The notes below the pieces were generated by a model. That model was not told the DNA's origin. It worked only from the letters and a program-made list of their open reading frames with translations, and ran no database searches. A stretch of 64,000 bases of DNA from the NCBI RefSeq assembly GCF_964355755.1, contig NC_092680.1, positions 15,323,045-15,387,044 of the forward strand, in the 5' to 3' direction. The DNA is from Antedon mediterranea (Eukaryota; Animalia; Echinodermata). Of this stretch, positions 1-45,878 are shown piece after piece. The first letter of the stretch is position 1. Each line of letters starts with the position of its first letter. The position numbers were made by a program, and so were the translations under genes.

Positions 1-381
1 ATGGCTGAAGTAAACAAACAACAAAACTACTGACTTTTCTCTTTCTTTTTTACTGTTAACAAGTCAGTAGAATTGTGCTGCTTGATATTATGTAATTGTG
101 AACCATTATTAACTTTTTGTACCTGTATATATATATTGTAATAACTGTATGAATTTATTTTGTAAACATTTTGTATGGGTCGAACCTCTTGTTACGAGAG
201 TGTTCCTCCGTTTTAAAGGAGAGTAACCAATAAATATTATTATATTATTAAGAGAGGGCGCTACTACATTTTACACCAGAATATTAAACTACTTATACCT
301 TCACAAATGAATGCAGTAATAATAGCTACAATATAATGTAATAACTGAAAAGAATAATTTAAATAATTTGCTTATTTACAG

Positions 382-3300
382 GTGTGATATTAGGACACGA
401 AACGGATGACAATGACTTGTACAAGAATATATTTAAGGACGCTGTAAACATTGTCAACAGGAATTCTACATTCCTTTCTGGCCAGCATCAAATGTTACTC
501 ATCGACCATGTTTTATATGCCAACTATGTTTATCCAGCATTACAAGCAGGTATGACATCATCCTATTTATTATCACTAACACTCATTTATTTGTCATGAT
601 ACTTTAATTCTTTGTATTCGTCATTGATATTGTTTATATTTGCATTATTTATACGTGTCAGCCACGTGTCAGTCGCACACCATATTCACATATCTTCACT
701 TGTCCTCATTCTTTTTTTATTTATCCTAATTTTCCATTTTCTTTCTTTATTCCCCTCTTTCTCTTCTTCGTTCCTCTCTTTCTCTTCTTCGTTCCTCTCT
801 TTCTCTTCTTCGTTCCTCTCTTTCTCTTCTTCGTTCCTCTCTTTCTCTTCTTCCAATTCATCTTCTTCAGTGTTCATCTTAATTCTCCTCCTCTTTCTGT
901 TTTCCGTACTCTTTTTATCCTTTCCGCTTCATTTCACACTCTTTATTTCATCCTCTTCCTCTAGCTTTTCATAACAATACCATTCTTTTTTCCCTCTTCC
1001 TCTTTTCTCTCTAATGCTATTCATCTTCTTACTTTTCCTCCCTTTTACCCTCTTCATTTTTCATCCTTATCTTTCTTCTATAATTTCTTATAAATATTGA
1101 AATTACATTTATCAACAGTTTGCAATACCATGGTGCAAACACAGCGAGTGTCGTCACTGATACTGCCAGAAGATATTTGTCCCATGTGTGGCGATGTCGC
1201 AGCTATGGCTAGCCATGCGACAAGTCCAGTGTTCAGTCTAGATCCGGGTAGTTTGAAGTCTGGTTCAGTGGCTTTCAAGATGCACCCTTCTCCAGAGGAT
1301 ATGAGCGAATTTTTTCTCGACATGCTCGTCTATTTCAACTGGAGAAATTTTATGATTATTTATGACACCGACCAAAGTAAGTTAGATAGATTTAAGATAT
1401 CTAGTTTATACTAGGCATAAATTAAATACACACGGAACTGGCCTTAAGTACAACACTTAAAGTCAGCAAAAATACCAATATGGTATGCGAGCTCTTTCAA
1501 TAATTTCTTTCAGAGTTATTAGATTAGTTAACTGAGCTGAATTCTACAGTTCAGAACGACAACTGTAACTATTATACTTGCAATACTTTTTCACAGTTTA
1601 CGCTAATCTGGAGGACGTCATAAGTGCTGGAAACATTTATAAGTGGAACATAACTCTGCGAAAGTACGATAATAACTTCGATCGTATCGTAGAATTCATC
1701 AAGATTGAGGAAATTCGGAACATATTTCTGTATACGTCGACAGAAAAGACTACCCGGAGAATAATGGAAATGGTACGGTAATGTGACTATTATTTAAACA
1801 ATAATCACAATAAACACGGTTGATGTTGTTGTTGCATGGTGTCCTTTAATGTATGTAGTATACAATTTCTTTTAAATGCTAAAGTGGGCGTCTACTGAAT
1901 AAATATCTATGTGCATATAACCTGTAACTACTTGAACACTACCGTCATTCTCGCTTACAATAATAACATTAATTATTATTATGCCAGTTATCGGGTTTGT
2001 ATATTACATAACGGTAACATTAGGCATACACATTTTCTGTAAAAAAAGAAGATGACATAACCAATGAACCAATCAACATTTAAACGGTATTAAGGGCTTA
2101 GTTTGAGAATCAGTGCGTTTAAGTATTATGCCTACATATTATTCATTTCATATTCGTAGGGGCTTGACGAAGGCGTGGTTAGTGACCAACACCATTGGAT
2201 TGTGGGAAATCTGGTAAGTATTGTACTGTAAATGTAGAACTACGTATATTAATTGTCGATAATGATTATCTGATTAACTTTTTTCTTCTTTTTACTTGAA
2301 AATACATCCGTCTCTTGTTTTATTTTAGGACGTCTATTTAGATCGTAGTTTTATGGAAGAATTAGAAGTAAACCGTGCGTACATGACAAGATTTAAAATG
2401 AACTATACGACACAGTGGCAGTACTCTTATCCGAGCTCTCCCGATCGCCGTCTGATAGATTGGCCTTTACGTGAGCGTCTTAGCTTTGACGCAGTGCTTA
2501 CAATTGCGCACGGAATGCGCAGATACAGAGAACGCGTGCGTGAAGAGGGTCGCATTGAAGACATCAATATATTACCAGGTGATACTATGATGAATTCATG
2601 TCCAATCAACAGTGATACTCCAACCCGTGCTCTTTGGAATGACGACTTGACTTACGTAAGTAATTGTTGTAGATGTTGTAAAATATCATGATTTTAACCA
2701 AATGAAATATGTAGGCATTTTTTCCGTAAATAAACGTAGGCCTACGGTATTATTCGTTTTTTATTGTTTAGGTAATGACTACAATTATAATACCTTTAAT
2801 AAAATTAAACAACAAATAGTGCAAGGACAGCAGTTCCAGTTGCTGCTTTTGCATATTGACAGTAAATGAACTGTAAAGCAATTTCTTATGAATAACTTTT
2901 TTTCAGTACAATTTTGAGGGACTCACTGGTAACGTAGCGTTCAACCCAAATGGAGATCGTGTGAATTACACAATAATGATATACAGCGGACAGGGCGAAA
3001 CCTTTGACACAGTTGTAAGTCAGTAACGTATTAGAACAAAATATGTATGCGGAGTGTAGAAACAAAATTGTTTTGTACATAATAGATTTTTATGTATCGT
3101 ACTAAAGATTGGTTGCCACTGGAGATGAAACGCAAGGATGTAAAGGCAACGTAAGCGAGTTGACCAATCAGAAGCTTTGGATTATTCAAACTTTCGATTT
3201 ACATTGGTCAACACGCTTGCGTTGCGTCATTGCGCCCTTGTCCAATGTAAACCAATCTTAATCCTAATAAACTAGTTTAAAGGTAAAGGTAAAGGTATTC

Positions 3301-6300
3301 ATATTTGTCCTCAAGCTTAACTGGAAACTGAGGAAATTCGGATTAGGCCCTCCACGGACCCACGGCAGCCAGCAGTGCAGCGCCTACCAGATCAGCACAC
3401 TGGGAGACGATCCCCTACTCTTTTCGAATAGTGTACCAAGTTCTTTAACGTGCACTGTTAAGTACACGGGACCAACGGCTTTACATCCCATCCGAAGGAC
3501 GAGGCAATGAGAGTAAAGCGCCTTGCCTAAGGATGCAATTAGTATGGTAACCTCGAACCCATGTCTATCACATGCTAGTCCGATATTACCATTACACCAT
3601 CACTCTCCAGTATATACAGCACCCGCCGCGATTTCTAGACGATCTCCCATCCAGAACGCAACCAGGCCCAACGTTGCTTAACTTCGGTGATCTGACGAGA
3701 ACCGGTGTTTCAACGCAGTAAAAAATAGTCGTACTTCTAATTACCGTGTTTTTAACGTCATTTGTTTTAACTGATATTGTAAGGATGGTTATTACTCATG
3801 AAATAAATCTTTGTGTTTATGTATTTCAAAACACTTTTTTTAGCGTGGTGAGTGGTCGCAAAATCCACTACATTGGGAAAGCCGATACAACATCGAGTGG
3901 CGCAATGAGGGACGTTTAAACGTAACCAAGTACGTACTTGGGCTAGAGAGACGTCTTAAAGTGGTTTCAATTCTGGTAAGTCTAATAATAATTACTTTGT
4001 CTATCACAAGAAGCTCGCAGTGGAATCTGAGACAAGTCGCGATGTTGTTTGTACTGGCTTGTTCTATATCCTATATACTGCATATCAATATATTGTTTCG
4101 TGTTAATAGAATTTAGCATTTATGATGGTGATACTGTAACATGTACTCTAGTAATTGTGATGCCGAAGAAAACTTATTGAGATTTTCAGTATAGATATAC
4201 ATAGCGTATTTTTCAGCATCTTTACATGGATACACTGACTCACCCACTCGCTTTTTCATCAAATACTCAGGAACTGTACTAAAATAACAATTACTTTTGG
4301 AATATTGATCGTATAACATTTTATAAGACTATGGTAATTATATTGTCTCTAGAACAGACTCTAGTCAACTAGTTATTCTTGTTATTTTTAATAACATTGA
4401 CAATGACGTATTAATATTGACGTATTAATATTGTCTATTTTTCAGCAAGCTCCGTTCTTGATGTACAGAGATAAAGTTGATCGTTATCGAGGTAATGCCC
4501 GATTTAGAGGCTACATCATGGATCTGCTGGAGGAGATTGCCCGTGTCGTAAAGGGTATCAATTTTGAGTACGAGGTTGAGTTGGTTGCAGATGGAAAATA
4601 CGGTCGAAGAGATGAGTACAGCAATGAATGGGACGGACTGATTGGAGAGCTTGTTCGTAGAGTAAGTCAGAAATGGATTTCAAGTGATTCCCATTTACTT
4701 GTTTCATAGGCCTACTAAATATTTAATTAGTTGTGTCATAACTTAACATAACATAAGTTTGCGAAACTGTATATTATACAATAACAAATTGAATATAACG
4801 ATCGATTCTTCATTTTGTAGTGGTAAAAGACAAATAAAAATAGGTTTTGTAAATATCAGAGACAGATACAAAAGTATTGTATCGTTCTATCTCAGAATTA
4901 AGTTTAATACAATGTAAAAAAGTGTGCACTCAATTTTATTGCCAGCATTGTTTGTAAAAAAAAAACTGTCTCGTTTGTAGGCGCGCCTAAATGTCGTGGC
5001 GTTATGTTTACTATTAATCACAGAAGATTTACTATTCTTGTAAATTTGATTTCATTTACTTTTGTATGACCCGTCGACAAGTTTACTAGTGAGGGACCTT
5101 CTTTTGCAATCATATTTATTGTTATATAGGCCTATTGTAATTTTTTTTGGGAAATATTTTATATAATATTTGATTGTTCTTGCAGAAGGCTGATATTGCA
5201 GCTGGACCGGTTTCAATAACGTCAGAACGTGACGCAGCCGTAGACTTCAGTTATCCATTCATGCATAGCGGTCTTCAGATTCTCATCAAACACCCGAATC
5301 ATGTGCTGGATGACCCCTTTGCGTTCATGTATCCTTTTGGAATTGAAGTCTGGTTCTTGAATGCCATATGTTTCTTGATGGTAAGCGCTCTTTTATGGGT
5401 CATCAATTCGTTTAATCCATATGAATGGAAGGCATCAGTTGAACGACACGAAACCTTCGGCGAAAACATTGACAACTTCAGTTTCAAAAATTCTCTCTGG
5501 TTCTCTGCTTCTACGCTTGTGTTCCAAAGTTACGATGCATCACCAAGATCAACGGCTGGCAGAGTCATAGCAGGATTCTGGTGGGTGTTTGTGGTCATTA
5601 TGGTGTTCTTGTATTTGACAAACCTGACATTTTGGCTGACAGCGTCTAAGCGTCTTGCAACGATTCGTTCTGCAGAAGATCTACTAGATCAATATGAAAT
5701 TAAATATGGCGTCGTTGATGAAGGTTCTGTGTATTACTTCTTGAAGAACTCATCAAACCCTGATTTTCAACAAATGTACAGCACTGTTGAAAACACTATT
5801 CCGAAGCCAACCGTGGCTAACGTTAGTGAAGGTGTTAAAAAGGTTCGCGAATCAAATGGAGACTTTGCGTTCATTGACGAAACTGGAATTCTAAGATATC
5901 AAGCCGATCAGGCCGAACCTTGTGATTTATACGTTACAGGTGGGTTTATTTCAAGGAACAGTTACGGCCTAGCTGTTCAGAAAGACTCGCCTCTTCGTGA
6001 CCAACTGTCGTTTGCTATTGAAACCCTGCGTGACACGCGTTCACTGGAGCATCTCGAACGTCAGTGGTGGCAGTGGGATAGTAAGTGTGGTAATTTGACA
6101 ACGTGGGAGAAACAAGGTATTTACTCTCTTACTAGTGTTGATCTTATGGGAGTTTATATTCTCTTGATAATCGGATGTATTGCAGCAGGAGTAGTCTTCT
6201 TAATAGAATGTATATGTACCGGTAAGGATGTAGATCAAAGAAGGGAAAGAGCTCCTGCGCGTAGGGATGCGCGTAGGGATGATAACAGAGGACCGACTTC

Positions 6301-6373
6301 GACTACTGCTGTTGGCGGAGGAACCCCTATTCAGCCGCTTCCAGGTCAGACCCATCACCAACAGTGGATTTAG
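382..6373 (+). CDS. Divergent ionotropic glutamate receptor, cluster gene 1 (5' partial; signal-peptide exon lies upstream of the window)
   Basis: GT-AG exons 382-549, 1119-1376, 1597-1772, 2160-2213, 2329-2655, 2907-3014, 3844-3975, 4446-4661, 5186-6373 join in frame. Motifs: ATD (YFNWRNFMIIYD, FEGLTGNVAFN), S1 (DGKYG..WDGLIGELV, ADIAAGPVSITSERDAAVDFSYPF), M1, pore loop SLWFSASTLVFQSYDASPRS, M3, S2 (YGLAVQKDSPLRD), M4. Confidence 0.93.
700..1078 (+). repeat. Polypyrimidine low-complexity tract with a 21-bp tandem repeat (CTCTTTCTCTTCTTCGTTCCT x ~4.5, ~756-852)
   Basis: Directly visible in gene 1 intron 550-1118; source of the spurious F/S-rich and E/K-rich ORFs. Confidence 0.9.
3105..3260. 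mobile_element. Degenerate PIF/Harbinger-like MITE (same family as 28028 and 61536)
   Basis: Imperfect TIR AAAGATTGGTTGCCACTGGA...TCCAATGTAAACCAATCTT; internal ACGCAAG/TGACCAATCA/CGCTTGCGTTGCG motifs shared with 61536-61702. Confidence 0.65.
3279..3720 (-). mobile_element. SINE with 5S rRNA-derived head, tRNA-like segment, Deu/Nin-like core and (ACCTTT)3 tail
   Basis: Minus strand: 5S-like 3720-3615; tRNA A/B-box-like 3609-3545 (GATGGTGTAATGG...GGGTTCGAG); core CCTTCGGATGGGATGTAAAGCCGTTGGTCCC...CACGTTAAAGAAC...CACTATTCGAAAAGAGTAGGGG; tail seen as AAAGGT x3 on + at 3279-3296. Confidence 0.8.
3615..3720 (-). pseudogene. 5S rRNA-derived sequence (SINE head, not a functional rRNA gene)
   Basis: Reverse complement contains CACCGGTTCTCGTCAGATCACCGAAGTTAAGCAACGTTGGGCCTGGTT...GGATGGGAGATCG, matching metazoan 5S rRNA. 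The 5' end is truncated and there is no oligo-T terminator. Confidence 0.85.
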
Positions 6374-10668: not shown

Positions 10669-13600
10669 ATGGCTTCATTTCGACTTTTTATTTTTATTAT
10701 ATCCATCCTGTTCACATTTTCAAATGCGAAGGACGTTTTGTTTGGTAAGTATGTTTTTAATCATAATACAATTGCTGTTTAAAAATTATACTTTGTTGGC
10801 CTACCAGCATTTTAAAGTTCAATTACTTTCGATAAGGACACATTGAAATGATGCAAAGTAAATTATTTTACTTTGAACGGTTAGTTTGTTTAGTATCGTT
10901 TTAATATATACATAAACTAAATTGCTACACTACAATTATACAGACGTAAACGATTAAATTTAACAAATGTTTAAAACTGCCTGATAAAATACTTCAGGAG
11001 TAGATTTTGTTTTTAAAACTAAATAAGTGCAATATTAAATATACATAACTTAAAATGAAGTATAAAGAAATCTTATATAAAATTTTCTCTACCAACAAGT
11101 GCTAATATGATTCCTCTCTTAAAGTAATTGAAAACAAATATTTCTGTTGTAGGTTTGCAATAAACACTAGTGAAGTTAGGTTTGCGTTACAAAATGTATT
11201 TCTAAATTGAAATAAAGAAAGATAGAGAATGTATCGACTTTATAAATATTGTCATGTTACAGCCGTCTCCTGGAGAAAGGCAATTTACACAGACGTGCGC
11301 AACGGTAAACGGAACACAGTGTAGCTTATCCTACACAGAATCTGTATCTAACCTGAGTCGAAAACGCCCGTCCGCTCCGTATTCTGTGTAAATTGTCATA
11401 AAAAATAACTTAATTCTATTTATTTATACACAACACCACATAAACACAGTAATACAATAGTTAACATTTATTATGTATTTGATACAACTGTCGTAATTAC
11501 CTTACCCTCAATAATGAAATTCTTTAATTATTATTTGGCTTATTTATAGAAATTTGATACCACTACTGTGGTCCGTCTTACCTTAAATAATAACATTCTT
11601 AATTATTTCGAGGGCTACTCATTTCATACTAGTTCGCTGTGTTGGGGATATTTCGTGAGACCTGAGACCCAGGAGAATTCCACTGGGTGTCAGTAGGGTA
11701 TATTTCCCAAATTTGCTTTACCATTATCGCTTGTGTGTGTAAATTGGTCTTATCGTTCTCTCTTTCCCTCAACATTTGTCAGCATTTTTCGTAATGTAGT
11801 TTATAATGTTGGGCCTTGACCGACTAATCTAATTCAGAAAATTATTTTTAAATATCCTTACGACACCATATAACTTGAGCACCGATGTAATTTTCAAAAA
11901 TATTTTTTTTAAATGTCTTTAAAACTGTCTTATCTGAGCTTCAGGACCACTATATAAAAATAAAGGGGAATTGTTTTACTACGGAATAACATAGTGTTTA
12001 AATATTTTGTATGCTGAAAAATAAAACATTTTATATAAATAAAAACACGCTAAAAATTATTGATTGAATACAGCACATAGATGCTTACATGGCCCTCAAC
12101 TGTATTCGTTTACCAATGCAGTGCTTCTCTGAATAGTGACAGTGTTAAACTTATAATAATTAGCGTTAAAAATTATTCTATTTTAAGGAATAGTCGAATT
12201 GGCAAAGGCAGATTAGATTCTTTCTTATCAAAGCTACAAAGGGTGTGTTTTAACGTTCTTGGTCAATTTAAGTAGACCACTTTTATTCCCCATGTGTATA
12301 TTAATATTTATGTGAAAACTAGATTGAATTAGAGTAAAAAAAAGATAGGATCAGGATTGTTCTATTAACTCGAACGTTGCCACCCTAGGGGCAATCGGTT
12401 TCTGTAAGTTATTAAAATGTCTAAACAGTAAATTATTTTTTCTATAACGTTTATAAAACATGACGATGAAAAAGTATGGTGATGCTACTATTAGAATAGG
12501 ATAAGAAAATGTTTAGGCCTAATGTAAAAAAAATAAGGTAAAATACGTGCGAATCACCTTTATTATTAGAAATACAGTAAGTCAAGTCTGATCCGCCACA
12601 TCAAACTGCTTAGGCTATGTTATATTATACTTTACATCAAATTTGATACAGTATGACAATCTTCTATCAGTTTCAAAAACGGTTTTTAGTTGCTGTTCTG
12701 ACAGATAACTTCAGTATTTACTGGTACTGTACTATTAAGGTTATGTCAAGGTTTAATGACCACTGTTCAATCAAGAATAATTCTTTAAAAATGTAATTGT
12801 TTCTATGGTTCAAGAATTGTTAATATTACTACATGTATACAGTACATTTGTATAGTATTTCAATTAAGTAGTTGTGTTAATTTTATCATACATTTCTTTA
12901 CTTTAGGATTTTTTTATTTCCTGTTTTTTCTTTTAACACTATGCTTTGTTACTGTTCTTGTGGCCGTCTTCTCCCGAAGACACATGGCCGTCATTGACGG
13001 ATTTCACTGCTGGTATACTCGAGATCTACGTTTATATACAATGCGTATGCCTACACTTTATTTCAATGTTTATGTTGTGTTGATATAACATTGCGATTAC
13101 GTTATTTATTGAAATATTTATATGTTGATGTGCTGTTATTTTCTTCTTGTGCTTTTGTTATGGTCTGTGTTGCTGAAATAAATAATTAATATCAAAGACT
13201 TTTTATTACTTTTTTTCTAATCTATTTTTTTTCTAATCTTTTTCTTGTTTTTATTTTATATTCTATTTTTTAATGCAACCTTAAAATATGTAATTTTCCT
13301 TTCCTTTATTTAAAATTATTAAAATATTAAAAAAAAAACGATTTAAATCCATCTAATTTAATTTAGAATAAAAAAATATCCCTATTCTAAAACCAAAATC
13401 TAAGCCTATTAAAACATCAAGGGAAAAGACCACAATTGAATACTCAATCCAATCGTTCATTTTGAAGAACAACTTATGTTTATTATTAGGTGCTATTCTC
13501 GGAAAAGATAGTTCTTCGACGACGGCGTACAGCTTGCCGAGTGGTTTCATCAATCTAGAACAGGTCATTGAAGACGCTACAAGGGTGGTTACTAGTAACT

Positions 13601-16600
13601 ACAGTTTCTTAACAAGTACTCATCAGCTGAAAGCCACGTTCGAAAGAGATTATAAAGATTCATTATTTGAAGTAATGCATTTAGGTAGGTCCATGAATAA
13701 ATATTATGTGTTTAATAAGTAATCAAGTATTTCATTTTAACATAATGTTGAAGTTAATCAATTTGATTAATTAATATATTATGTTATCCTAGTTTGGTAA
13801 TGTAGTTTGCAAATAAGTCAATAAATAATAAATATATAATGTATATAGAATAACGAATACTATGTTGATATAAAGTTTGCGGTAATTAGTTCTGAAAAGA
13901 ACTTTTGAGTTTCTCGACATTTCGATGAATATACTTAGGGAAACTCAACAGTTTTTTTTAACTAAATAAACGTGATGTAAGCAAAATGTATGTCAACATA
14001 TAATAAATCTTCATCAAAAAAAGTTTTTTCTCACTAATGTGTTTACTGTCGCATACACATCGATAGGCTAAATGTTAGGTCACGTCTAGTAATAAATAAT
14101 GTTGTACACAGTATGACATGGTATAATATCATCCTTCCTTTTCTTCCATTTTTCCAAATTGTAAAGCTTGTGATACAATTCGGACAAACAGACCTACTTA
14201 CCTCATCGTTCTGGAAGATGTATGTCCTGGTTGCAGTGATTTGGCATCGTACGTTAGTAAGACAACGGAGGGACCTATTATTTCTATAGATCCTGGTCAA
14301 GTAGGCACAGGTTCCCGGGCATTGAAGATGTACCCACCTCAAAGTGACATGATCAACTTTTACATGGATATTTTGAAATATTATAAATGGAGAAAATGGA
14401 CTTTCGTTTACGATCACGGTGAAAGTGAGTAAATATGAGTTGTTTTAGTTGGCCTATCGGTTATATGTAATGTGAATTCTAAATTCGTTTTGCTATTTTT
14501 TAAGTTAATCAGAATTATTTTTGTAATTTTAATTTTCAGTGTTCAACAACTTTCTACCTATCAAAGCTTGGGCTGATACACAACAGTTTAACGTTACATT
14601 TGAGCCTTTTGAAGGTAACTTAGACATGTTGGCTCAACGAATTCGTAAACGCGATGATGCGAACATATTCTTGCTAACAGCAACGGAGAAGGCAAGCCTC
14701 GATATCATTCTTGGTGGAATTGATCGAGGAATAATATCCAGAAAGTATCATTGGATAGTTGGGCATCTTGTAAGTTTACCATTAGTGTTTACCGACCTAT
14801 TGTATTATGATTTATTCTATTATGATTTAGGCCTAGTCTTTATTGACAAACGGGAGATAAGAGTCCAACAAAATATATTCAATGAAGCATAAAGTCTTAA
14901 TATGTACCGTATCAAATTTAGATACTATTTTAAACTAATTTTAATTAAAACAAGGCCAACAGCCATAAGTCGCGTGCTAAAACGCTTAGTGATACCGGAC
15001 CAACAGACAGACCGACAGACCGACAGACCGACCGACCGACATAGTGAACTATAGAGTCGCGTCCACGCGACTAAAAACAAAATTTAACAATAATAAATGT
15101 TCAATTAATAATCTGACACTGTACATTACGATTTTGACGTAGGCCTAAGTATCAGTAAAAGGAAAACATAAGGAAGGAAGACATAACGCGTACATTACGT
15201 TTCTCCTATGCAAATCAAATTCCATTACCTTACTACTGGACAGGCAATTAAGACAATTTCTTGTGTTGTTTTTGAGTGCTTTTGGTTTTTATCCCTTAAA
15301 AAGATTTTCTCTTTCCATTCTTTTGGAATTGCGTTTAATACAATTTGCCATTCAGCAATCCAGTTTGATTTATACCTAAGCATATCTAGTAATTCATTTG
15401 CGTTAATGAACCTTTTCTCAATTACAATATCCTTAATATTTCGCACACCTGACCTTATCCAGTTTCTAAAAAATATTGACATGTCATTGTATAAAATCAT
15501 TTTGTTATACCAGAGTTGTTGATGCAATATATCATCATAACATAATTGACGTTTAGTCATACCACTATTAAGTTTGACTAAAATACATAGTATAGATTTA
15601 TAGAAATCTGGTATGGCTTTAAAAATAGCATTTTTCTTATCAATATATGATATGTTTTCAATAATATCGTTTGGGCCTATTCTATTAAAATATGTGTTTG
15701 GCAGACATTTCCACTTTGAATCCTCATTGTTATACAATCTTTTAAGCCAAGATATTTTTAAAGATTTAACCTGTGACCTGAAATCAGGCGCTTTAACACC
15801 ACCACTTTCATATTCGTTTATAAGAACTACTCTTTTAACCTTTTCTCTTTTTCCATCCCACAAAAAGTCAAAAATTATGTTATCACCACGTTTTAGAACA
15901 CTTTCAGGCGTGTTTATAATACTTGCAACATAAACAAGTTTTGACAGGCCAAGCGTCTTTAAGATAATTATTATTGTCTGTGTATAGTTAGTGAGCATTT
16001 TACCAGTATTGTATAATAAAAAAGGTGTCCTTTTCTAACCCATTTATTTTTAATGAAATGCTTTATAGATAATTTTGCATTTAATTAAAATATATGTATA
16101 TTTGTGTGTTTTATTTACTTAGGATGTAGTACTGCAAAGCAATGTTAGAGAACGACTGGAGAGTACAGGAGTATACATGACTCGTTTTAAGATGAATTAT
16201 ACAATGGAGTGGCAATATACTTTCCCCTCATTTTCCGATCACCAAGCAATTTTACACGAATGGCCGCTACAATACAGGCTAGCATTCGATGCCGTTCTGG
16301 CTAGCGGATACGGACTCATGAAATATCGTCTGGAGCAATTGCATGTAGATCCTAATAATTATTATACAGATGCTACAGTAATAGACAATTGTCCTACCGG
16401 TAGTTACAATCGCAAACCTACCATGAGCAAAATTTACAATTATACAAAATATGTAAGTTATACTTCTTTCATTTAGATTGTTTTACCATTAATCATTTCA
16501 GCGTCAACAAATATAATTTATTTTGTTTCATTCACAGGTATAAACAAAAATGTACAAAAATAGTCAAATGCTAAAAACATTGTCATTATTTACAAAGGTT

Positions 16601-19600
16601 AAAAAACAAAAAATGTGTTTTTACTACATCTCCTTATTTAATTATACATTTTCTGACGTTAGAAAAAACAAAGCTAATTACTGATAACTTATATCTAAGT
16701 ATAAATTATCCCTTTATACGTTTGCAGTTAGTATAATTATGAAAATGATATTATTAATAATTTATCTACCTTTAAAATTGTTTTTGCAATCAATTTGTTC
16801 AAACTTAATTTATAAAAAAGTGACGCTATACGGTAGATTTTCTTTTATATATTACACTACAACATTACTTTTCAGTATAACTTTGAAGGGCTGACAGGAA
16901 ATATTGCCTTTAATGACGTTGGTGATAGAGTAAACTATTCGATCATGGTGCACGCTGGTATCGGGCGGACGTTGGATCAACTGGCAAGTACTCTTTTTAA
17001 ATTTATTTTTTAAACCTGTTTTCCACTAGGAAAATTTGTTTGCGCGAATCCAACGTTTTGCAGAGAAAAACAAATCGAGTCACAGGTCTGCTGAGCTTTT
17101 CTATTTGCAAGAGTGGTCATAAACGTGTTTCCAGCTCAGTTCCCGAGCTCACATTGGTTGCACAATGTTTCGCTTTGTTTCGCGTTTTAACTGGTATCGT
17201 AATTTCGCTGAAGCAACTAGAATTCGTCGTAGAGAGGGATTTGGAAGATGAAAACATAAATATGCATGCGTATAAAGCTGACGCTTTCGATTGGCGCGAA
17301 TAGACTCAGCTAGTGAATAGGCTTTACGCATTTAATGTAGGTCGGAGCATTATTTGATTTTGTTATTGATTTTATTTTTTGCAATAAACTATTTAATTTC
17401 TTTATTAAACATTGTAACACTGTGACTTTCGCACATAGTTTAAAATGTCGGTTAATTAGACATTTAAAAAAATCATTGATGTAACTTAATGCCACGTAGT
17501 TGACCCTTGACCCTGTCGCTAGTGACCATAACGATCACCTTTGAATGATAAATTGATAATAAGCTAACTTGTCTTTAACTATGTATTTTTTTATATCAGG
17601 TTGGAGAATGGGCAGAAAATCCTAATCACTGGGAAGATAGGTATAAACTGAAATGGGAAAGCCATGGACGATTTAATACGACCCGGTATGAACAAGGTGG
17701 AAGACGAAAGTTGAAAGTTGTATCGATCAAAGTATGTTGATAATTATACCTTGTTACGTAATTCAGTCATGCTGTACCCATCCAGAGGCTACACTAAACT
17801 AAATATAAATTTCCTTTATGGTATGTTGCCACTTACGCTCGTCGTTATCTCCAGCTCAGTTGAATAACAATAAGTGGCCTCCGCCGGTGGTTTATATGTG
17901 TAAGACTTGTTACTTAGCATGTTATCCTTACTTACTATTGAGATTGCTCTGTTTTAAACAACTATTTATATAACACATAAATAAATTCTTGTCAATTGAT
18001 TGGACGATTAATGATCACATGACGTGCAATAGTACGTCCTATTTAACACAATGGTCTAATAATAGTTTTTTATACTTTTTTTTTCGCCCCGTGAAAATAG
18101 AATTTCATCTATCACCTCATACATTATTTGTACTATCTCACTCATAAATATTCATTATTTTTTTATAATATATCAATTTTTTTAGTATAACAAGTAGGCC
18201 TATTTTATGTAAAAATAATATGATTATGCCTATGAATGAGCAGGCCTAGTTATCTATTTCAGATTTAACGTCACGAAATCAATGCAGTTTCTGATTACAT
18301 ACGCTGTGTTTACCACTTTCATCCTAATATTATATAATAACTAACAATGTTCCTGTTTTTGTAGGTCTTTCATGTTTTTAATTACGGCATTTAATATCTT
18401 TTCTTATATGTGTTAAGGTTCCACCGTTTTTAATGGACAAAGATGATGTACTTTACAGAACAAAACGAGACACTAATTACGTAGATGAATACGATCGTGA
18501 TCGCTACAAAGGATTCATTGTTGACCTACTAGAAGAAATAAAAAATACGGCAAAAGGCATTGATTTTGATTACGATATCGAGCTGGTGCCGGACGGAAAA
18601 TTCGGTACAAGAAAACCATTTAGTAAAACATGGAACGGAATGATTGGCGAAGTATACAGAGGAGTAAGACCTTTTGTTTTTTTAAAAACCAAAGATAGGT
18701 TTAGCTAGTTTTAAAGATATGTATTCATGAAAAATGAAGTTTAATAAAAACAGATTTTGAATTGGTAATTTTGCAGTTTGCAAGTTAATCACTTCCGTAG
18801 AAAAAAAACCAAAAAAAACCCCAATAATTTCACTTTTTCAAAAGATAAAAAAAATGTTAAATTCAACCATTTACTTCCAGCCAGTTTGACTATTTGTTTG
18901 CGTTAAATCACTGTTTCTTCAGGTAAATCATTTTTTTCCGATCCAATTTTTGGTCAAAGTGAATAACTATTACGTGACATTAAACTTATAATATATAACA
19001 ATATATCTTTAAATGACAATATTTTGCTTCTTATGACTTACTGGTATACCTATTAACAAACATTCTATTCAGAATTTAAAACTATTTAAGACATAATTCG
19101 GAACATGATTATTTAATTATAGTTGAAGTAAAATAGCTCACTTATGCCACATAAAATATCAGTTTCTGCTAATGAAGGACGGCTATTCTGAATATTAACT
19201 AATGTATTAAATAAAGATACAATCCTTTTCAAAAATCAACAACCATATCGCTGGTATTCATAACGGAATACAACAGTAATTCAATTACTTTCCACACTGT
19301 AATATATTTATCGAATCATGGAATCATGTTTCTGTAAATATCTGAGCATTTTTTTGTTATCTCAAGAGATCGATAAAATAAGTTAAATTCAGTATAATTT
19401 ACGTACCGAAAATTCGAGCACTTAAGTACCTCTGTGAGATTTGTAGGCTACTTTTGAAGATCTTCTGGTGAAATAAAAAACCATTTTGAAAAATCATATT
19501 CACAGGTGTTATTAAAATATGACATCGATTCATGTTACTGCAGAGTGCATGTATTTATTTTATATTACTTTAGTTCCTATTATAATAGAAGTTTCTGCCC

Positions 19601-21143
19601 TATGAATATTCATTTATTCTGTTACTTTCTTATTTGCATTCTCATTTACATATTATTTGCCAAGTGTGCACAGTGTGCTGTTTCTCCTTTGTTTTCCTTT
19701 GTCATAATTTTCTTTTGGAAGGAATCAGCAGCAGCTGACCTAATTGGTAGATCCAATTAAAATTCATGTTTTTCAGAAGTTTCTGATTTTTCAATTCAAA
19801 AGCCACAACATCTTTCAAGCGTCATTACTACGTGATATTGTTTTAAGCCTATAGTCTGTTTTGCACTTATCCTTTTAATATTATGTTATTATAAATGAGT
19901 AATGTAAGGCATATTGATCAGCAATGACTTATTTAATTATATTTTGTTTACGCAGAAAGCAGACATCGCAGCTGGCCCTTTGACTATTCGACCAGACAGA
20001 GTCCAGGATGTAGATTTTACCAGTGCATTTATGCAGGCTGATTTAGCTGCTCTTGTTCACCACCCTAGCTACACCACCGGGGACGTACTAAGCTTTTTGT
20101 ACCCATTCTCTCTTTGGGTATGGCTTTTAAACATCGTTGTATTTGTGGTGGTTAGTCTTATCATCTACGGAATCAATTATTTTGACCCATACGAGTGGCG
20201 CTTGACTGCTTTGCGCGGGGACGCGTATGAGGAAAACATGGACAATTTCAATTTATCTAACACAATGTGGTTCCTTACATCTACCATGCTTTTTCAAAGT
20301 TTCGATACATCTCCAAGATCAAACGCAGGCCGTGTGATGGCGATATTTTGGTGGGCTTTTGTCGTCATCATGGTCTTCCTTTATATCTCGAACTTACCAT
20401 TTTTTCTTCAGTCTACGAAACGACTAACAGGCATAAGATCAATGGATGAAATGCTTGACCGTTACGACGTACAACCGGGTATTGTAGCAAGTGGTTCCAC
20501 ATTCCACCTTTTGAAAAAATCGAAAGATCAAACACTGAACCGGTTTTTTAAATTTGTGGAATATGCCAATCCAAGTGTTTTAGTGTCAAGTACAGAACAA
20601 GGCATTGATCTGGTGCGTGATAAAAGCAGACGTTTTGCTTTAGTTGGCGAATCTCCAGTTTTAGCATTCCATGCCTCAAAGGATCCGTGTGATCTTCATG
20701 TGACTATTGGGAAGATTTACAGACAGAGTTACGGACTTGCTATTCGGAAAGACTCGCCGTTAAAGGAACCGTTGTCTCACGCCATAGAACTACTCATAAA
20801 AAATGAACAGCTACATCGTCTTGAGTTAAATTGGTGGCAGAGGAATAACAGATGTGGAAACATGACAACCTGGGAGAAACAAGGCATTTATTCATTTACG
20901 TCAGTCGATCTCTATGGTATATACATCTTACTCGCGCTAAGTATGATCGCCAGTATTGTGATCTTTATGGTGGAATTTCTTTGTTGTGATTCAAGTAAAC
21001 ATCAGAAAAAGAGCAAGAAAAGGAACAAGCCTAGCAGTAAAAGGAAGGAAAATGAGCAATTTACCCTCTCTGTTATAAATGGTGATCGCACACCAGAGCC
21101 ACCTATGATACTATCTACAGAAAAAGAAAAACAATGGCTTTAA
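10669..21143 (+). CDS. Divergent ionotropic glutamate receptor, cluster gene 2 (~920 aa)
   Basis: Exons 10669-10744 (signal peptide MASFRLFIFIISILFTFSNA), 13490-13684, 14167-14424, 14540-14769, 16123-16452, 16876-16983 (GC donor), 17600-17731, 18418-18663, 19956-21143. Total 2763 nt in frame; same iGluR domain order as gene 1. Confidence 0.92.
11278..11398. mobile_element. Small TIR element (Harbinger-like MITE)
   Basis: CAATTTACACAGA...TCTGTGTAAATTG inverted ends with internal ACGG/CCGT symmetry. Confidence 0.55.
14946..15078 (+). mobile_element. Short Helentron-associated (DINE-1/HINE-like) element
   Basis: (ACAG/ACCG)n microsatellite followed by the hairpin AGTCGCGTCCACGCGACT and AAAAA; AGTCGCGT also occurs near the 5' end. 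Confidence 0.55.
15225..15975 (-). mobile_element. L1/Tx1-clade LINE ORF2 fragment (post-RT region), antisense in gene 2 intron 4
   Basis: KTLGLSKLVY...IIFDFLWDGKREKVKR..L...YESGGVKAPDF....SLKISWLKRL...W...LWYNKMI...F..W...GV..IKD is typical of L1/Tx1 ORF2 downstream of RT; truncated at both ends. Confidence 0.85.
17012..17326. mobile_element. Degenerate Harbinger-like MITE
   Basis: AAACCTGTTTTCCACTAG...CTAGTGAATAGGCTTT imperfect TIR with CGCGAA subterminal motifs. Confidence 0.5.
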
Positions 21144-22577: not shown

Positions 22578-25500
22578 ATGGCTCACGCTGTGGTAAATGT
22601 TTTGGTTTGTGTTTTGCTTTTTCACGCAAATGTTCACATTGCTAATGGAGAAGGTGTTACATTTGGTAAGTTTTATACCTGTTGATTTTTTTAAATAAAT
22701 GTAATTAAATTATGCACGATACAGTATTAATAACACGATTCCTATGCTTTTTTGTAAATATGTATGATTTTATCAGATCTATTAGAAAATAGGCTCAGTA
22801 AAAGCATTTTCGCATCAACTAAGCTGAAACCGACCATCATCTCATGTTATGTTGTTTACTTACTACCTGCCTATATAGAATAAAATAGAACTGAAAGCAC
22901 CAATTAATATTGCCGGTATCCGGATGTTGGTTTCAGCATTTCTTTATAAAAATAACGGATTGTATTTTAATTTATTCATCATAAAACAATTCCTACCATC
23001 TTAAATTACAAGACTTGTATAATAATACTATTTTTATTTCCTTATAAATGTGATTTTTCAAGTAGCAGTCTACCTCCCTGTTTTTAATTCGTATCTGTAT
23101 TTGTGTTTAAAAATACTTATTTTAAATGCTTGTGTCTTTGTCTAAATATATTTGTTCTAAAATTAAAAAGGGGTAAATACATAGTGAATATCCTGATCAA
23201 TATAAATGCTTAAATATAATATTTAAATTATGAATTTAAATAATGGTGTGTCATCCGTGATGATCCACCTTTGACTTCCTTGCATTGGATGAAATGTAAT
23301 GACTAATATTTTGAAATCCTACATTAACAATATTAATCAACGTTTTAAACACCGACTGTAAAACAAAGTAACATAGTCGGGCTGTAACCGAGAGTATGAA
23401 TCAGAAAGGTGATTAACGCATTATTTTCCCTGGTGCCTACCTATGTTTTAGCTGGGTAACAACGCCCTAGTTTAGGTACCACATTATGATTGACATTTAT
23501 TGACCAATCGCAATTGTATGGTGTTTTACCATATTCCATGAAAAGTTAATCAGAATGTGGTACCTTTACTCCCTTGTTAATATGAAAATCAAATCAAATT
23601 ATGCAAACCTGTACAGTATCATTCAGTTCACACCTCTTTACCCATGCGCGTGTTACGTCACCTATCAAGTGAACAATATTGCTATAGTTCGCAGCACTTT
23701 CTTGTCAACCTAAACTATCAATCTTCTGACGCTGTAGTGTTAGGTAAACAATTCAATAAAAGAAGCACTTGATGAACTTTCACATTTTTTACGTGTTACG
23801 CATTTTATGACTTTCGAAATTGATGCTTCTACTCGAATATATTTATTCTAATATATCCTCAAAGATAAAATACGTTTTGTCCAGAATTTGTTACGCATTG
23901 TAGGTTTAATTTTACATTCTTTTTATTATTGACCAAGACAATGGCAGTATCATAATATAAATAGGTGGTGGAATCTGTGGGACTAGAACAATGACTAAAA
24001 ACCGCATTACTATTTGTTATATTTCTCATGTGTGCGCTTTGCTGCTGAATTTTATTTTAAAAACCTAATAAAATACCTATCTGATTGAGGGAGATGTTGA
24101 CAAAATAAACCGCAAGGTGCAATGCAATAAAGTATACCAATTTAGGAAACGTCATGGAGTTGGCCTTCACCCTAGTTGTTGAGGACGTTCGTATACATCC
24201 TAAATTGATCTTTTATTATTTATTGATTATTCAATAGCCAGCATAGCCCAACTATGCTTTTTGATGCACTGTAAAGGTAGATTTTCAACGTGTTATGTTT
24301 TACTTAGCTTTGCTATGACTTTTTTACAGACTTGGCCTACAATACACTGTAATAAAATTAATACAACCCGACCCGCATAATGTCAAACATTTCCCCATCC
24401 AATTTTCCGAGTTATCTACCCTCAATTGTGGCCTCTACCCAATAACAGTATAATTATGACTACTAGTAAGGTATTTGGGTAATTTTCCAGTCAAATTCTT
24501 TGACCCGTAATGATCATGGCTCAAGTAAAGTTTATATAGCAGGTTTCAAAATACATTTTCCACTTTGTTGTTCTAAATAGTTGATAGCAAGCTCCGCGGC
24601 AAAATAGAACCGTTAAATTTCTTTAGGGCCTTTGGCGCTAAAATTAAGTTCACAAGCAATTTAAGAGGTCACAATTAAAAGAGATCTAGTTGGATAGCAA
24701 TCGTGTTGTTAACAAAACAATTGTTCGTTCTATTGTTTGCATCCATAAAAGCTTCTGAATTGACGCTTGATTACACTTCAGTTGCTTTCTAATTCCAATT
24801 TCTAAGGATGTTTTCAATACCGTGGCTTATAAATCCCTTTGTATAATTTTAAGTATGCTGACTAACCGATGATGAACAGTTTGTTATAATAGTTTCGTCA
24901 TTGGTGAACAATTTACCCCTGGCAATACCGTTCTCTATTGTATTTTGTCTATTCTAAACGACACAATGAAGGCTTTTTTACTATTGAATTTAGCTTTGAG
25001 TTTAGGTAGTACCTTTTAAATGAAAAGTAAGACTTTACAAACAGCATTTAGAAAATTATTTACATTTCAATGTAAGTGATATCGGTCGGCAAGCAAACAC
25101 ATTTGGAACAACATCCAGACCTAATAATAATTTTAAGTATGTTGACTAAACCGATGATGAACAGTTTATATATAATAGTTTCGTCATTGGTGAACAATTC
25201 AACCCCTAGTTCCTATGGCATTGATAAACTAGAAACTTTAGTAAAACAAATTATAAAGTTATAATATACTAGGCCTCCAAGACCGAATTCGGGCTAAAAA
25301 CCTTATTTTTGTTTTAATATTCAGTATAATTAATTATTCGTACATCCCCTTTAACAAAAAGGCCGACTGAACTATGCAGGTACTTATTTTATAGATAGTA
25401 TAGATAGACACACAAAAATGATAGACGTCTTGTTTATCATGAAATCTAACTTTAAACGTGTTTCATCAACATCATCCTTCTAACCTACATTTCGTTGGCA

Positions 25501-28500
25501 TGGTTTGTTTATATGAACTGTCAAGCTATTTACATATCGTAGCATGTAAATATGAATAAACGTTAGTAGGCTGAAACTTTATTAATCAGAAATCATAAGA
25601 AAAGATTATCTTAGCTCCCTCTGGAATCAAGGAAAATACTAAACACAGAATGGAAGCATCGATACCAGAGAATGGTTTTCAATTAAAGTTACCCTTTTTG
25701 CTTCAAATTTAAAAAAGAAATGTGGGATTCATTCTTTGAAGTAATATTGAACTAATTGCCTTTAGTTTTAAAATGAATAAATAATGATTGATAATATCAC
25801 CAAAAACGAGTTCAGTAAAACAAACCATCCAAGCCACGAAATGTCAAGGAAAGTCAACAAAAACAGGTGTACTTTAAACAAAATTCGACTGGGACTCATA
25901 ACAAGAGTAATTTCTACTTTCTATTTCGGGCACCCATCAAAACAGGTCATTCCTACTACCAGCTGATTGGAAGAGACCTGTCATGATGAAGTTATCAACA
26001 TTATACTCTTCAAATCGATTAACATGCTTGGCGCGTGCAAAATGCAGTAGACATCGTAGTATCTGAATATAAAATGAAAGCTTGTCAGAGCCATAAAGGA
26101 AAATAAGTTTAGGGTTTTAAATGTCTTACCAATTATTACACTTTATATTTTCTTATACAGGTACTTTGTTAGAAACTTTCTCCAAACGAAAGCGGAAATG
26201 AATATTTTCCCAATTCTGATACATTTCACATATCATGTTCCGCAGGTTTTTTGGTATACAAATTCCTGACCTCACTAATTACTACGGTACTCGAGAATAT
26301 TTTGTAGTGAATGTCGTTGCGTTTTATATTAATACCATTGAACTCTCTCATTTATCATTGTTAGCTGGTTTCAGTATAATTATTTTCCTGTTTTTTTATT
26401 CTGGCATTCTTATTTTTATACAATAGCAATTAAGCTAACAAAACCGTGAGTCATCGGGCGTATACTTCGTGGTAACAGTAAAATAATAATTATTGATTTA
26501 CACTGGTAACAAGAGCGCGTCGTATATGCATATTGAAAGAACACGGATTTTGTATTTGTAGGCCTATACGTTATTTTGGTTTAGTATGCTTTAAACTACA
26601 CACAGTTAACGTATACATGACTTCATAAACGTGTAGCTGTTTGTTTTTCTGAAAAATAAATTCCACTAATGTTTTCAAGTCAAAAATCATTATAATCAAT
26701 TTTATTACCCTATAAACTACTATATATATTTAATATTTAAAATATTAAACTCCTGTGTTTGTATGCGTAAGCAATCTTCATTAATACATTCGTCGGTAAG
26801 ATATATCAATAATTTTAAATAAATATTAATTAATATAGTAATGGATGTGTTATATGACCTTAAAATAGATTTTTTTTCACAGCAAAGGGAAAGTGCAAAA
26901 TTCGTGAATAACAAATAATAACGAAAACATTTTGTTGTTGTGATATTTGTGTGATAGCAAGGCGAATATTATGTTTTTCTTTGACCGTGTTGTCAATATT
27001 ATTTTATTTTAATACAGGTGCCATACTAGGAGAAGAAACTGGACGGGTCGGCAGCGTTTACTATGAAATACTTGACCACGCCATGGCTGTGATTCGATCA
27101 AATAGTACATTCTTAACACAATTTCACAAAGATGTATCAGAAGTTGTTGTCGTACAACAGAGCAATGACGACTTATATCCAGCATTAAAAGAAGGTAAGA
27201 AATATCATTTAAAACAAATTTAAAATAGGGTTTTTCTGTACCGTACATCAACAGCAATAGAACTAATCGTGGCGTAGGCCTATTGATATGTTTAAATTGA
27301 ATAACTGTAGCATCATGAATTAATAAGGGAAATAAATACTTGCTTTTGACTGGACTTCAATAAAAAATAATGAGGTTAGGGTTATCCAAAATAAAAACTT
27401 AGAAATAATGTTTTTATGGTTACTTATATTATTTTTCCATTTCAATGATATATACTGTGTTATTGGTCTGTGATTTAGTTTAGTTTCTTATTTTGTATTA
27501 TCATATTGAATATCGTAATACAATACGACGATACATTTATGAACAATCGTTCTTTTATAGTCTGCGATTTTATCCAACAAGAAGTACCATCCACATTAAT
27601 TATCACAGAGGACGTATGTGGTGATGACGTAGGTACATTTATCAGTTATGGATTACCTGGACCAGTATTCACTGTCGACCCTGGTCAGTTTGGTTCCGGA
27701 TCCAGAGCCATCAAGATGTACCCTATCCCGGAAGATATGAGCATATTTCTTCTTGACATGCTTGATTATTTTAAGTGGCGTAAATGGACGATAGTTTATG
27801 AAGATTCTCGTAAGTTGTATTAAAAATATCTATTTATTACAGTATTATTACAGTATTAATCAGTGATGGCACCGTATATAGGTTGAGGGCGGGGATGATG
27901 GTGAGGAGTTGTTATAGGGGAAGATGAGGTTTTAACCGACGGAATACTCGTCTGATTACTTTAATGGTAATGAACTTTAGGCTTGATTTTTAAACACTGT
28001 CTGTGTAAAGCTCCGCAATAGGCCATTTAAGCGTGGTTCCCACTAGAACGCGACGTATCGACGCAAAGTGCTGTATTGCGTAATCACAAGTGGGAACCGA
28101 TGACGCAATAGTGCTGCAAACATCGCAGGTTTGATTTCAAGCAGGCGGGGGCAAACACAATTATTAGAAGGGCATTCTCCTACGTTGCGTAGATTGCGTT
28201 ACGTTGCGTCCCTAGTGGGAACCAAGCTTTAGCTTTGAGATTATCTTTTTTTTTTTGTAAGAAGTGACTGTACTGTAAATACAACATTATGTTATTTTAT
28301 ATTATTACAGAATACAATACATTTTCGGACATATTAGTTGCTGCTTCTGCCAACAAGTTCAACGTCACATTACGTGAATACAACGGTGACGTCGCCGACT
28401 TAGCTGAACAAATAAAGGCTGACGGGAACCAGAACATTCTTCTGATGACGGAGAGTGAGGAAACGACAATAGACATTATAAACAAAGGGGTAGCACAGGG

Positions 28501-31500: not shown

Positions 31501-31554
31501 ACCAGTGTTGACTATGAACTAACCGGTCCAACCAAAGAGAAACAGTGGTTGTGA
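22578..31554 (+). CDS. Divergent ionotropic glutamate receptor, cluster gene 3 (~895 aa)
   Basis: Exons 22578-22665 (signal peptide MAHAVVNVLVCVLLFHANVHIANG), 27018-27194, 27561-27809, 28311-28540, 28701-29033, 29457-29564, 29797-29928, 30046-30261, 30400-31554. Total 2688 nt in frame; closest paralog of gene 2 (same introns, same KEKQWL terminus). Confidence 0.92.
24843..25207 (+). repeat. ~80-bp direct repeat (24843-24920 and 25127-25207)
   Basis: ATAATTTTAAGTATG[C/T]TGACTAA..CCGATGATGAACAGTTT...ATAATAGTTTCGTCATTGGTGAACAATT occurs twice in gene 3 intron 1. Confidence 0.85.
28028..28230. mobile_element. PIF/Harbinger-like MITE
   Basis: TIR AGCGTGGTTCCCACTAG...CTAGTGGGAACCAAGCT flanked by TAA/TTA. 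Confidence 0.8.
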
Positions 31555-45500: not shown

Positions 45501-45878
45501 TTCAAATATACGCAAACATAATTAGTAATTATATTACTTATTTTATGAGCAAAAAAAGATTAATTGTTACAGAACAAGCTAACACACGCATAACATTGGA
45601 TACACAACATTAACCTTAGTTAATTATATTTTAGTATCGACATATTATTCTGTAAGCGACTGGTATATCAAATGTATGTTACCATCCACCAACCATCAAT
45701 ACTTACTTGTAATGACAATGATAAAACCAATGAATTACATTTCATTAAAAAAAATTAATAATCTATTGGTACGTAAAAAAAATAGAAAATGAAACTTACC
45801 CATTTTCAACTCGAGAGCTAAAGCCACTTGTTGGACTCCGATGGAGAGAAGCAACACAAGCGCCACTTTCATCGCCAT
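36513..45878 (-). CDS. Divergent ionotropic glutamate receptor, cluster gene 4 (~915 aa, 11 exons)
   Basis: Minus-strand exons 45878-45800 (signal peptide MAMKVALVLLLSIGVQQVALA), 41977-41810, 41451-41200, 40766-40582, 40047-39994, 39546-39356, 39198-39075, 38809-38702, 38598-38458, 38070-37789, 37676-36513. Total 2748 nt in frame. Confidence 0.92.

What the first reader, a model, noticed from the sequence alone, without database searches (positions are those of the whole stretch)
5522..5536. Hydrophobic Q/R site and loss of the filter glycine (FQS/LQS-x-D) in all five genes
Seen: VFQSYD, LFQSFD, FLQSFD, FLQSYD, FLQSYD versus canonical MQQGCD. The Q/R/N site is Phe or Leu, the +2 Gly is Ser, and the +4 Asp is kept. 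Known: the Q/R site sets Ca2+ permeability and polyamine block and is the ADAR editing site. Inference: a selected, family-specific filter that cannot undergo Q-to-R editing; its conservation beside a variable M3 argues against neutral decay.
Basis: partly seen in the sequence, partly recalled or inferred. Interest (0 to 1): 0.7.

Follow-up and report, generated by a model that had tools for sequence, protein, structure and literature searches.

The report
Feather star Phi glutamate receptor pore
Five intact feather star genes of the known but untested Phi class of glutamate receptors carry Leu or Phe at the pore site that controls calcium flow, and Ser in place of a filter Gly, so they likely form cation channels with weakened polyamine block; the loss of Gln at that site was already reported for this class.

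Summary
All five genes read [FL]-Q-S-[YF]-D, and Phe/Leu, not the conserved Gln, sits at the Q/R site. The channel-domain exons are identical to RefSeq Antedon mediterranea proteins and group with the published Phi-class protein GluF_Apl, which has LQSFD. A 2018 paper already states that no Phi subunit has Q586 and that some have a degraded SYTANLAAF. I did not find the +2 Gly-to-Ser change discussed. It is not fixed: 24 of 30 echinoderm relatives have Ser and 6 have Gly. The editing argument carries no weight, because Q/R editing arose in vertebrates; spliced contigs of two genes match the DNA at the filter. The filter evolves slowly while M3 gate positions evolve fast, so decay is unlikely. 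Best reading: amino-acid-gated cation channels with weak polyamine block, by analogy with GluK2 G592A. I found no recording of any Phi receptor, so non-conducting or leaky behaviour stays open.

The parts
5522..5536 (+). Gene 1 selectivity filter FQSYD (Q/R site Phe, +2 Ser, +4 Asp)
5510..5512 (+). Gene 1 pore-helix position -4, Ser in place of the usual Gly (GluK2 G586)
   Evidence: sequence; Ser in 5 of 5 window genes and Ser/Thr in 29 of 30 echinoderm rows
5606..5635 (+). Gene 1 M3 segment FLYLTNLTFW, in place of SSYTANLAAF (Phe at 614, Leu at 617, Thr at 621, Phe at the Lurcher site 622)
381..6373 (+). Gene 1, full-length iGluR (P0212, XP_071965094.1, 905 aa); the first 30 residues were not found in the window; last exon 5186-6373; six introns between 2212 and 5186, five of them listed as GT..AG joints, are skipped in contigs of runs X1 and X3
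10669..21143 (+). Gene 2, full-length iGluR (P0011, XP_071965769.1, 920 aa); spliced in X1 and X3
20292..20306 (+). Gene 2 filter FQSFD
22578..31554 (+). Gene 3, full-length iGluR (P0008, XP_071965770.1, 895 aa)
30736..30750 (+). Gene 3 filter LQSFD
36513..45878 (-). Gene 4, full-length iGluR (P0041, XP_071964348.1, 915 aa)
37323..37337 (-). Gene 4 filter LQSYD
47680..53723 (-). Gene 5, full-length iGluR (P0018, XP_071964150.1, 875 aa); residues 1-8 not placed
48523..48537 (-). Gene 5 filter LQSYD

Best explanation
The five genes are intact tandem Phi-class (GluF) ionotropic glutamate receptors of a feather star with Phe/Leu at the Q/R site and Ser at the +2 filter glycine, and they likely form amino-acid-gated, non-selective cation channels with weak polyamine block and lower Ca2+ permeability than Q-form AMPA receptors. 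Shown here: register, intact reading frames, splicing of genes 1 and 2, clade, retained ligand-anchoring Arg485 and Asp/Glu705, and slow evolution of the filter. Inferred from mutants of other iGluRs: ions would still pass along the backbone carbonyls of the +1 to +4 loop; the kept Asp+4 would attract cations at the inner mouth; Ser at +2 and -4 would repack the loop and spoil the spermine site; loss of the Gln side chain would lower Ca2+ coordination. Genes 1 and 2 (Phe) may keep more block than genes 3-5 (Leu).
For: Phi identity: P0002 (XP_022105896.1) starts with the same residues as the GluF_Apl row of the 2018 alignment and has FLQSFDASPRS. The five genes fall in one 30-row clade with it (support 100) in trees built without the pore and M3 columns. 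Arg485 and an acid at 705 are present in 5 of 5. Positions 653-655 read GSV, GST, EST, APV, GST, so by the rules of PMC6307864 genes 2 and 5 are glutamate candidates and gene 1 a glycine candidate. In GluK2, G592A (+2) gave complete loss of polyamine block (Kd >100 uM), G586A (-4) about 12 uM and Q590A 8.3 uM against about 1.25 uM for wild type, and all carried current (PMC2217257). Small or hydrophobic pore-loop substitutions mostly yield functional channels (PMC2442176). Gln-to-Ser at the Q/R site lowered Ca2+ permeation in GluA2 and a placozoan receptor, and most plant iGluRs have Phe/Tyr there with a +4 acid (PMC12226733). The gene 1 model is confident (pLDDT 91.5), has a normal pore helix, and its best PDB matches are AMPA receptors. 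L-glutamate is reported to excite crinoid arm muscle (review PMC10603993).
Against: I found no recording of any Phi receptor (searches; passages), so every functional step is an analogy. The M3 gate is heavily changed: 0 of 30 echinoderm rows keep Thr617, 1 keeps Ala621 and 0 keep Ala622, and genes 2 and 3 have Pro at 621. An aromatic Q/R residue works the other way on block: Q590W binds spermine at 190 pM, and Phe is said to retain strong block (second-hand; the 1999 source was not read). The GluK2 data are for Ala, not Ser, and for single changes, not four together. Position 480 is Val and Ile in genes 4 and 5 and 653 is Glu in gene 3, so ligand binding is not certain for all five.
Confidence: 0.5

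Rival explanations
1. The proteins are non-conducting or silent receptors, like vertebrate delta receptors. They bind ligand or act as scaffolds, and the pore loop is kept only for folding and assembly.
For: The pore-lining M3 gate residues (T617, A621 and T625 in GluA2) are not conserved, and positions 617, 618 and 622 evolve fast. Three polar positions (586, 614, 617) have become hydrophobic in most rows; T617 is pore-lining and 614 is recalled as facing the cavity. This could dry the pore. Vertebrate delta receptors are a precedent for silent AKDF members.
Against: The derived states (+2 Ser/Gly only, -4 Ser/Thr, +3 aromatic) hold over a tree length of about 11 changes per site. Ligand-anchoring residues and M3 Asn619 are largely kept. 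Invertebrate delta receptors turned out to be gated channels.
Confidence: 0.22
2. The paralogs are obligate heteromer subunits that assemble with each other or with AMPA/kainate subunits and tune the partner's pore, so no single gene makes a channel.
For: Five divergent paralogs (for example 53% identity between genes 2 and 3 over the last exon) have different M3 and ligand-pocket residues. Recurrent obligate heteromers with differing pore residues are reported for invertebrate AMPA receptors (PMC13520880).
Against: No co-expression or binding data were obtained here. It is compatible with the best explanation and differs only in assembly.
Confidence: 0.15
3. The M3 bundle-crossing gate is loose or leaky, and closure has moved inward to a hydrophobic ring formed by Leu/Phe586 and Phe614 at the tip of the pore loop.
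For: A8T (Lurcher) gives constitutive activity in AMPA, kainate and delta receptors, and bulky A7 residues hold NMDA receptors open (PMC3434102). The five genes have Phe, Phe, Trp, Ser, Asp at A8 and Thr, Pro, Pro, Ser, Ser at A7. Phe614 (27 of 30) and hydrophobic 586 (30 of 30) are conserved while 617 and 622 are not. The Q/R site is energetically coupled to M3 in GluK2 (abstract of PMC3753602).
Against: No tetramer or pore-radius calculation was made. Leu/Ile/Phe at 617 in 4 of 5 genes could seal the usual gate just as well. Bulky A8Y did not hold NMDA receptors open. Molluscan AMPA-clade proteins have Leu/Phe586 with a normal M3, so the two traits need not be linked.
Confidence: 0.1
4. A-to-I editing recodes the filter in RNA, turning the AGY Ser codon into GGY Gly (or Gln+1 into Arg), so the protein has an ordinary glycine.
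For: All five Ser codons are AGT or AGC, one A-to-G change from Gly.
Against: Spliced contigs of runs X1 and X3 show no difference from the DNA at the filter of genes 1 and 2. Three unnamed full-length relatives on 3-5 kb contigs, likely transcripts, also have Ser. The best local duplex at the site beat all 16 control positions in only 1 of 5 genes, and by 0.2 kcal/mol. AGY is expected anyway after a GGY origin. Contigs hide minor editing, and genes 3-5 were not covered.
Confidence: 0.03

Closest known systems
Phi class (GluF) of AKDF iGluRs, Ramos-Vicente et al. 2018 (PMC6307864); nearest named member GluF_Apl, XP_022105896.1
   Same: Same clade; 55% identical to gene 1 over the last exon; same LQSFD-type filter; no Q586; degraded SYTANLAAF; Arg485 and acid 705 kept.
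   Different: Other published Phi members differ at the filter: GluF_Pfl reads LQGYS and GluF3_Bfl reads VGGGAE with a normal SYTANLAAF (ids, sequences). The +2 Ser is thus a trait of most echinoderm members and one hemichordate pair, not of the whole class.
AMPA receptor GluA2 / kainate receptor GluK2
   Same: Fold and pore-helix geometry; Gln+1, Asp+4, SPRS; about 33% identity in the Foldseek matches.
   Different: Gln/Arg586 becomes Leu/Phe, Gly588 Ser, Cys589 Tyr/Phe, Gly582 Ser, and M3 is rewritten. The Q/R codon has no editable A and lies inside a single 1.2 kb exon.
Placozoan Epsilon GluE1 clade (PMC12226733)
   Same: Non-canonical Q/R/N residue (Ser, Ala or Leu) with a kept +4 acid; GluE1alphaA is a working channel with less Ca2+ flow and less polyamine block.
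   Different: A different subfamily, an independent change, and the tested residue was Ser.
Plant glutamate receptor-like channels
   Same: Most have Phe/Tyr at the Q/R/N site and a +4 Glu.
   Different: Distant lineage; no sequence comparison was run here.

Membership tests
iGluR, AKDF subfamily | ATD, S1/S2 ligand-binding domain, M1-M2 loop-M3-M4 | tested here: met
   Full-length RefSeq matches map to exons in the window; Pfam PF01094, PF10613 and PF00060 on P0008, P0011 and P0018; model and PDB matches for gene 1
Phi class (GluF) | Groups with published GluF proteins apart from AMPA and kainate clades | tested here: met
   30-row clade with GluF_Apl, support 100, pore and M3 columns left out. 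Anchor identified by its N-terminus. Only one anchor was confirmed by sequence, and no amphioxus GluF, Epsilon or NMDA sequence was knowingly in the tree.
Phi class (GluF) | No Gln at 586 | tested here: met
   Phe, Phe, Leu, Leu, Leu; stated for the class
Phi class (GluF) | Lower conservation of SYTANLAAF in some members | tested here: met
   LYLTNLTFW, LYISNLPFF, LLLSNAPWH, LYGMHLSSF, SYFANLSDY
Amino-acid-binding iGluR | Arg485 and acidic 705 | tested here: met
   5 of 5
Ligand-gated cation channel | Agonist-gated current, ion selectivity, rectification | not testable with these tools
   needs electrophysiology
AMPA or kainate class | Falls in the AMPA or kainate clade with QQG[CS][DE] and SYTANLAAF | tested here: not met
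   the RefSeq names 'glutamate receptor 1- to 4-like' do not match the tree
Q/R-edited receptors (GluA2, GluK1/2) | Editable Gln codon at 586 | tested here: not met
   codons lack A; no A-to-G change at the filter in spliced contigs of genes 1 and 2
Insect-type variant ionotropic receptors (tuning IRs) | Lack of ATD (recalled) | tested here: not met
   all five have an ATD

The most novel reading that the evidence does not exclude
Echinoderm Phi receptors have moved their gate. The M3 bundle crossing, which carries Lurcher-like residues, no longer closes the pore, and a conserved hydrophobic ring (Leu/Phe586 plus Phe614) on a repacked Ser-Ser-aromatic filter does. This would be a filter-gated or tonically active, polyamine-insensitive glutamate receptor channel.
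Probability: 0.12. Interest if true: 0.75.

Novelty: new member of a known kind. Interest (0 to 1): 0.36.

Why it matters
I found no functional data for the Phi class, and the 2018 paper left open whether its pore and gate changes matter. This cluster and its relatives supply natural variants: Phe versus Leu at the Q/R site among neighbours, Ser versus Gly at +2 between urchin relatives, and molluscan AMPA-clade proteins with Leu/Phe586 but a normal M3. These allow a clean test of what the filter glycine and Q/R side chain do. Glutamate is suggested as the main excitatory transmitter in crinoids, so the receptors may be physiologically relevant. The headline trait is already published, which limits the surprise.

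Tried and rejected
No whole genome is held for the window. The pore columns of the 2018 alignment could not be read because rows are cut in the stored file, and the figure with the pore alignment is not held; it may already show the +2 Ser. GluF_Sko and GluF1_Spu could not be matched to my proteins by N-terminus; P0197 (XP_002730575.2) is only presumed to be GluF_Sko. No RNA holder was listed on record; X1 and X3 were read as RNA only because their contigs skip GT..AG introns. No RNA contigs were seen for genes 3-5, so editing there is untested. Foldseek gave only ranked matches, no residue pairing. A shifted register (Gln on the Q/R site) was rejected. Pseudogene decay was rejected. An ATD-less, IR-like reading was rejected. 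No tetramer was predicted, since a pass would come from likeness to solved AMPA receptors and would give no pore geometry. Amphioxus GluE1 was not used as proof that Phe works: one paper gives it Gln586 and another Phe. The search of earlier scan findings returned nothing. Searches for a functional study or a description of the +2 Ser found none; most subscription papers are outside the library.

Full report
Observation. Bases 5522-5536 translate to FQSYD. The window holds five long ORFs of 387-411 residues, each with one [FL]QS[YF]D-x-SPRS motif, at +5522, +20292, +30736, -37337 and -48537. Shuffled windows gave 0.15 such pentamers on average, maximum 2, in 100 shuffles. The codons vary synonymously: Gln CAA or CAG, Ser AGT or AGC, Asp GAT or GAC.

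Register. The phmmer alignment to GluA2 chains has no gap across M2-M3 and pairs VFQSYD with MRQGCD, so Phe is on the edited residue. Against an AMPA-type reference, shift 0 won separately for upstream and downstream flanks in 5 of 5 genes. The Gln of the motif is a nearly invariant column in a 100-row alignment and pairs with the second Gln of QQGCD. AlphaFold2 models of gene 1 (pLDDT 91.5) and of a QQGCD control (P0116, pLDDT 85.2) both have a 12-residue pore helix ending two residues before position 0. The two models share alignment rows, and Foldseek returned ranks only (AMPA receptors on top), so a true structural superposition is still lacking.

What the genes are. The last exons are 100% identical to RefSeq Antedon mediterranea proteins P0212, P0011, P0008, P0041 and P0018. 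All are full length (875-920 residues) with an ATD, and their exons map in order in the window. Contigs from runs X1 and X3 skip GT..AG introns of genes 1 and 2. The 19 best hits of the first search are echinoderm proteins where named, 16 of 19. P0002 from Acanthaster planci begins exactly like the GluF_Apl row of the 2018 alignment and has FLQSFDASPRS.

Phylogeny. From the proteins fetched I kept those aligning over at least 280 residues of gene 1 and dropped the five RefSeq copies of the window genes, isoforms and near-duplicates (list), leaving 165 rows. With the pore and M3 columns removed, the five genes and GluF_Apl form a 30-row clade (support 100 in FastTree, and in a 56-row IQ-TREE run). 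Next to it lie hemichordate proteins (LQSFD in two, LQGYx in three) and short proteins with WQGYx (an annelid, a chiton and one unnamed). Support for that wider grouping is weaker (97 and 88). Six proteins with LQGSD or FQGSD and a normal M3, of which the four that I named are molluscan, sit among AMPA-type receptors, a separate origin of a hydrophobic Q/R site.

How fixed the motif is. In the 30 echinoderm-clade rows position 0 is Leu 21, Phe 7, Met 2; +1 is Gln 29; +2 is Ser 24, Gly 6; +3 is Tyr/Phe 27; +4 is Asp 27; -4 is Ser/Thr 29; and the S614 position of M3 is Phe 27. In the 121 remaining rows, 0 is Gln in 101 and Leu/Phe/Met in 3, and +2 is Gly in 114 and Ser in 2. Ser and Gly exchange at least 6 times among 39 rows. 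The constraint at 0 is on hydrophobicity, not on one residue.

What is known. PMC6307864 (passages, section 7 in full, searches of two supplements) says that none of the Phi subunits has Q586, that the +4 acid is better conserved, and that some Phi proteins have a degraded SYTANLAAF of unknown effect. Its pore figure was not available to me. PMC12226733 (passages, section 16, supplement searches) describes wide Q/R/N variation, with Leu in placozoan GluE1 and Phe/Tyr in plants. Its sequence file holds the Anneissia ortholog of gene 1 with VFQSYD, GluF_Pfl with LQGYS and GluF3_Bfl with VGGGAE. PMC13520880 (passages, section 16) states that Q/R editing arose in vertebrates. PMC8437780 (passages) reports Phi genes in molluscs. 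PMC13648236 and PMC10861852 (passages) showed no Phi recording. PMC6267866 (passages) reports starfish iGluRs in sensory tentacles, which I could not link to this clade. PMC12377769 and PMC3753602 were seen as abstracts; PMC2217257, PMC2442176, PMC9068512, PMC3434102 and PMC10603993 as passages, with table rows for the first.

Mechanism. [quoted passage not shown] In GluK2, Ala at the +2 Gly removed polyamine block yet left a conducting channel, Ala at the -4 Gly weakened block about tenfold, and Trp at the Q/R site strengthened it greatly. The -4 position packs against the filter in the KcsA-based model. Shortening the Q/R side chain to Ser lowered Ca2+ permeation, and D590 forms a Ca2+ site. 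From this I infer a cation channel with weak block and reduced Ca2+ flow, with Phe paralogs perhaps blocked more. All five keep Arg485 and the 705 acid, with varied selectivity residues. The weak point is M3, where Thr617, Ala621 and Ala622 are replaced. Lurcher-type changes open other iGluRs, while hydrophobic 617 might seal the pore. Silent, heteromer-only and moved-gate readings therefore stay open.

Editing. The Q/R codons have no adenosine, but this needs no selective explanation outside vertebrates. I tested the reverse idea, that the AGY Ser is edited to Gly. Spliced contigs show no change at the filter in genes 1 and 2, and a strong local duplex is not a shared feature. Minor editing and genes 3-5 remain unchecked.

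Verdict. The feature is real, correctly registered and under selection. It is the pore of echinoderm Phi receptors, whose lack of Q586 is published. What I could not find described is the set Ser-4, Ser+2, aromatic +3 and Phe614, or any functional test. Interest 0.36; new members of a known kind, with a 0.12 chance of a new gating design.

Noticed in passing
P0047, P0049, P0050, P0054, P0070, P0089: AMPA-clade proteins (the four named are from a snail and three bivalves) with Leu/Phe at the Q/R site (LQGSD, FQGSD) and a normal SYTANLAAF: an independent hydrophobic Q/R site and a good control for tests.
   Followed up: partly
window 5186-6373, 19956-21143, 30358-31554, 36513-37676, 47680-48906: In all five genes one exon of about 1.2 kb encodes the end of S1, M1-M4, S2 and the C-terminus; vertebrate AMPA genes split this region into many exons (recalled).
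   Followed up: no
C-termini of the five genes and of P0002, P0014: Shared ends QWI, QWL, QWL, EYL, EWL, MWI, LWI after a variable tail; resembles a PDZ-binding motif (recalled, untested).
   Followed up: no
P0035 / P0005: A sixth Antedon paralog with LQSYD has the same longest-contig length as the five but does not map in the window. Four Anneissia relatives share one 700,243-base contig length, and urchin relatives have neighbouring accession numbers, which suggests an old cluster.
   Followed up: partly
window 6230-6353: Six substitutions and a 12-base deletion among four runs fall in the C-terminal tail of gene 1; none is listed in 5186-6229.
   Followed up: no
window about 3282-3922, 8410-9050, 14820-15460, 18666-19306; about 600-970: Very high contig depth marks genome-wide repeats in introns and spacers; a low-complexity pyrimidine-rich tandem tract lies in a gene 1 intron.
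   Followed up: no
P0099, P0108, P0173, P0046; amphioxus and Lingula entries: Short (about 465-520 residue) relatives, too short to hold an ATD, with Trp or Leu at the Q/R site (WQGY, WQGVD, LQGY); Trp at this site gives picomolar spermine block in GluK2.
   Followed up: no
PMC6307864 versus PMC12226733: The two papers disagree on the Q/R residue of amphioxus GluE1 (Gln versus Phe).
   Followed up: no
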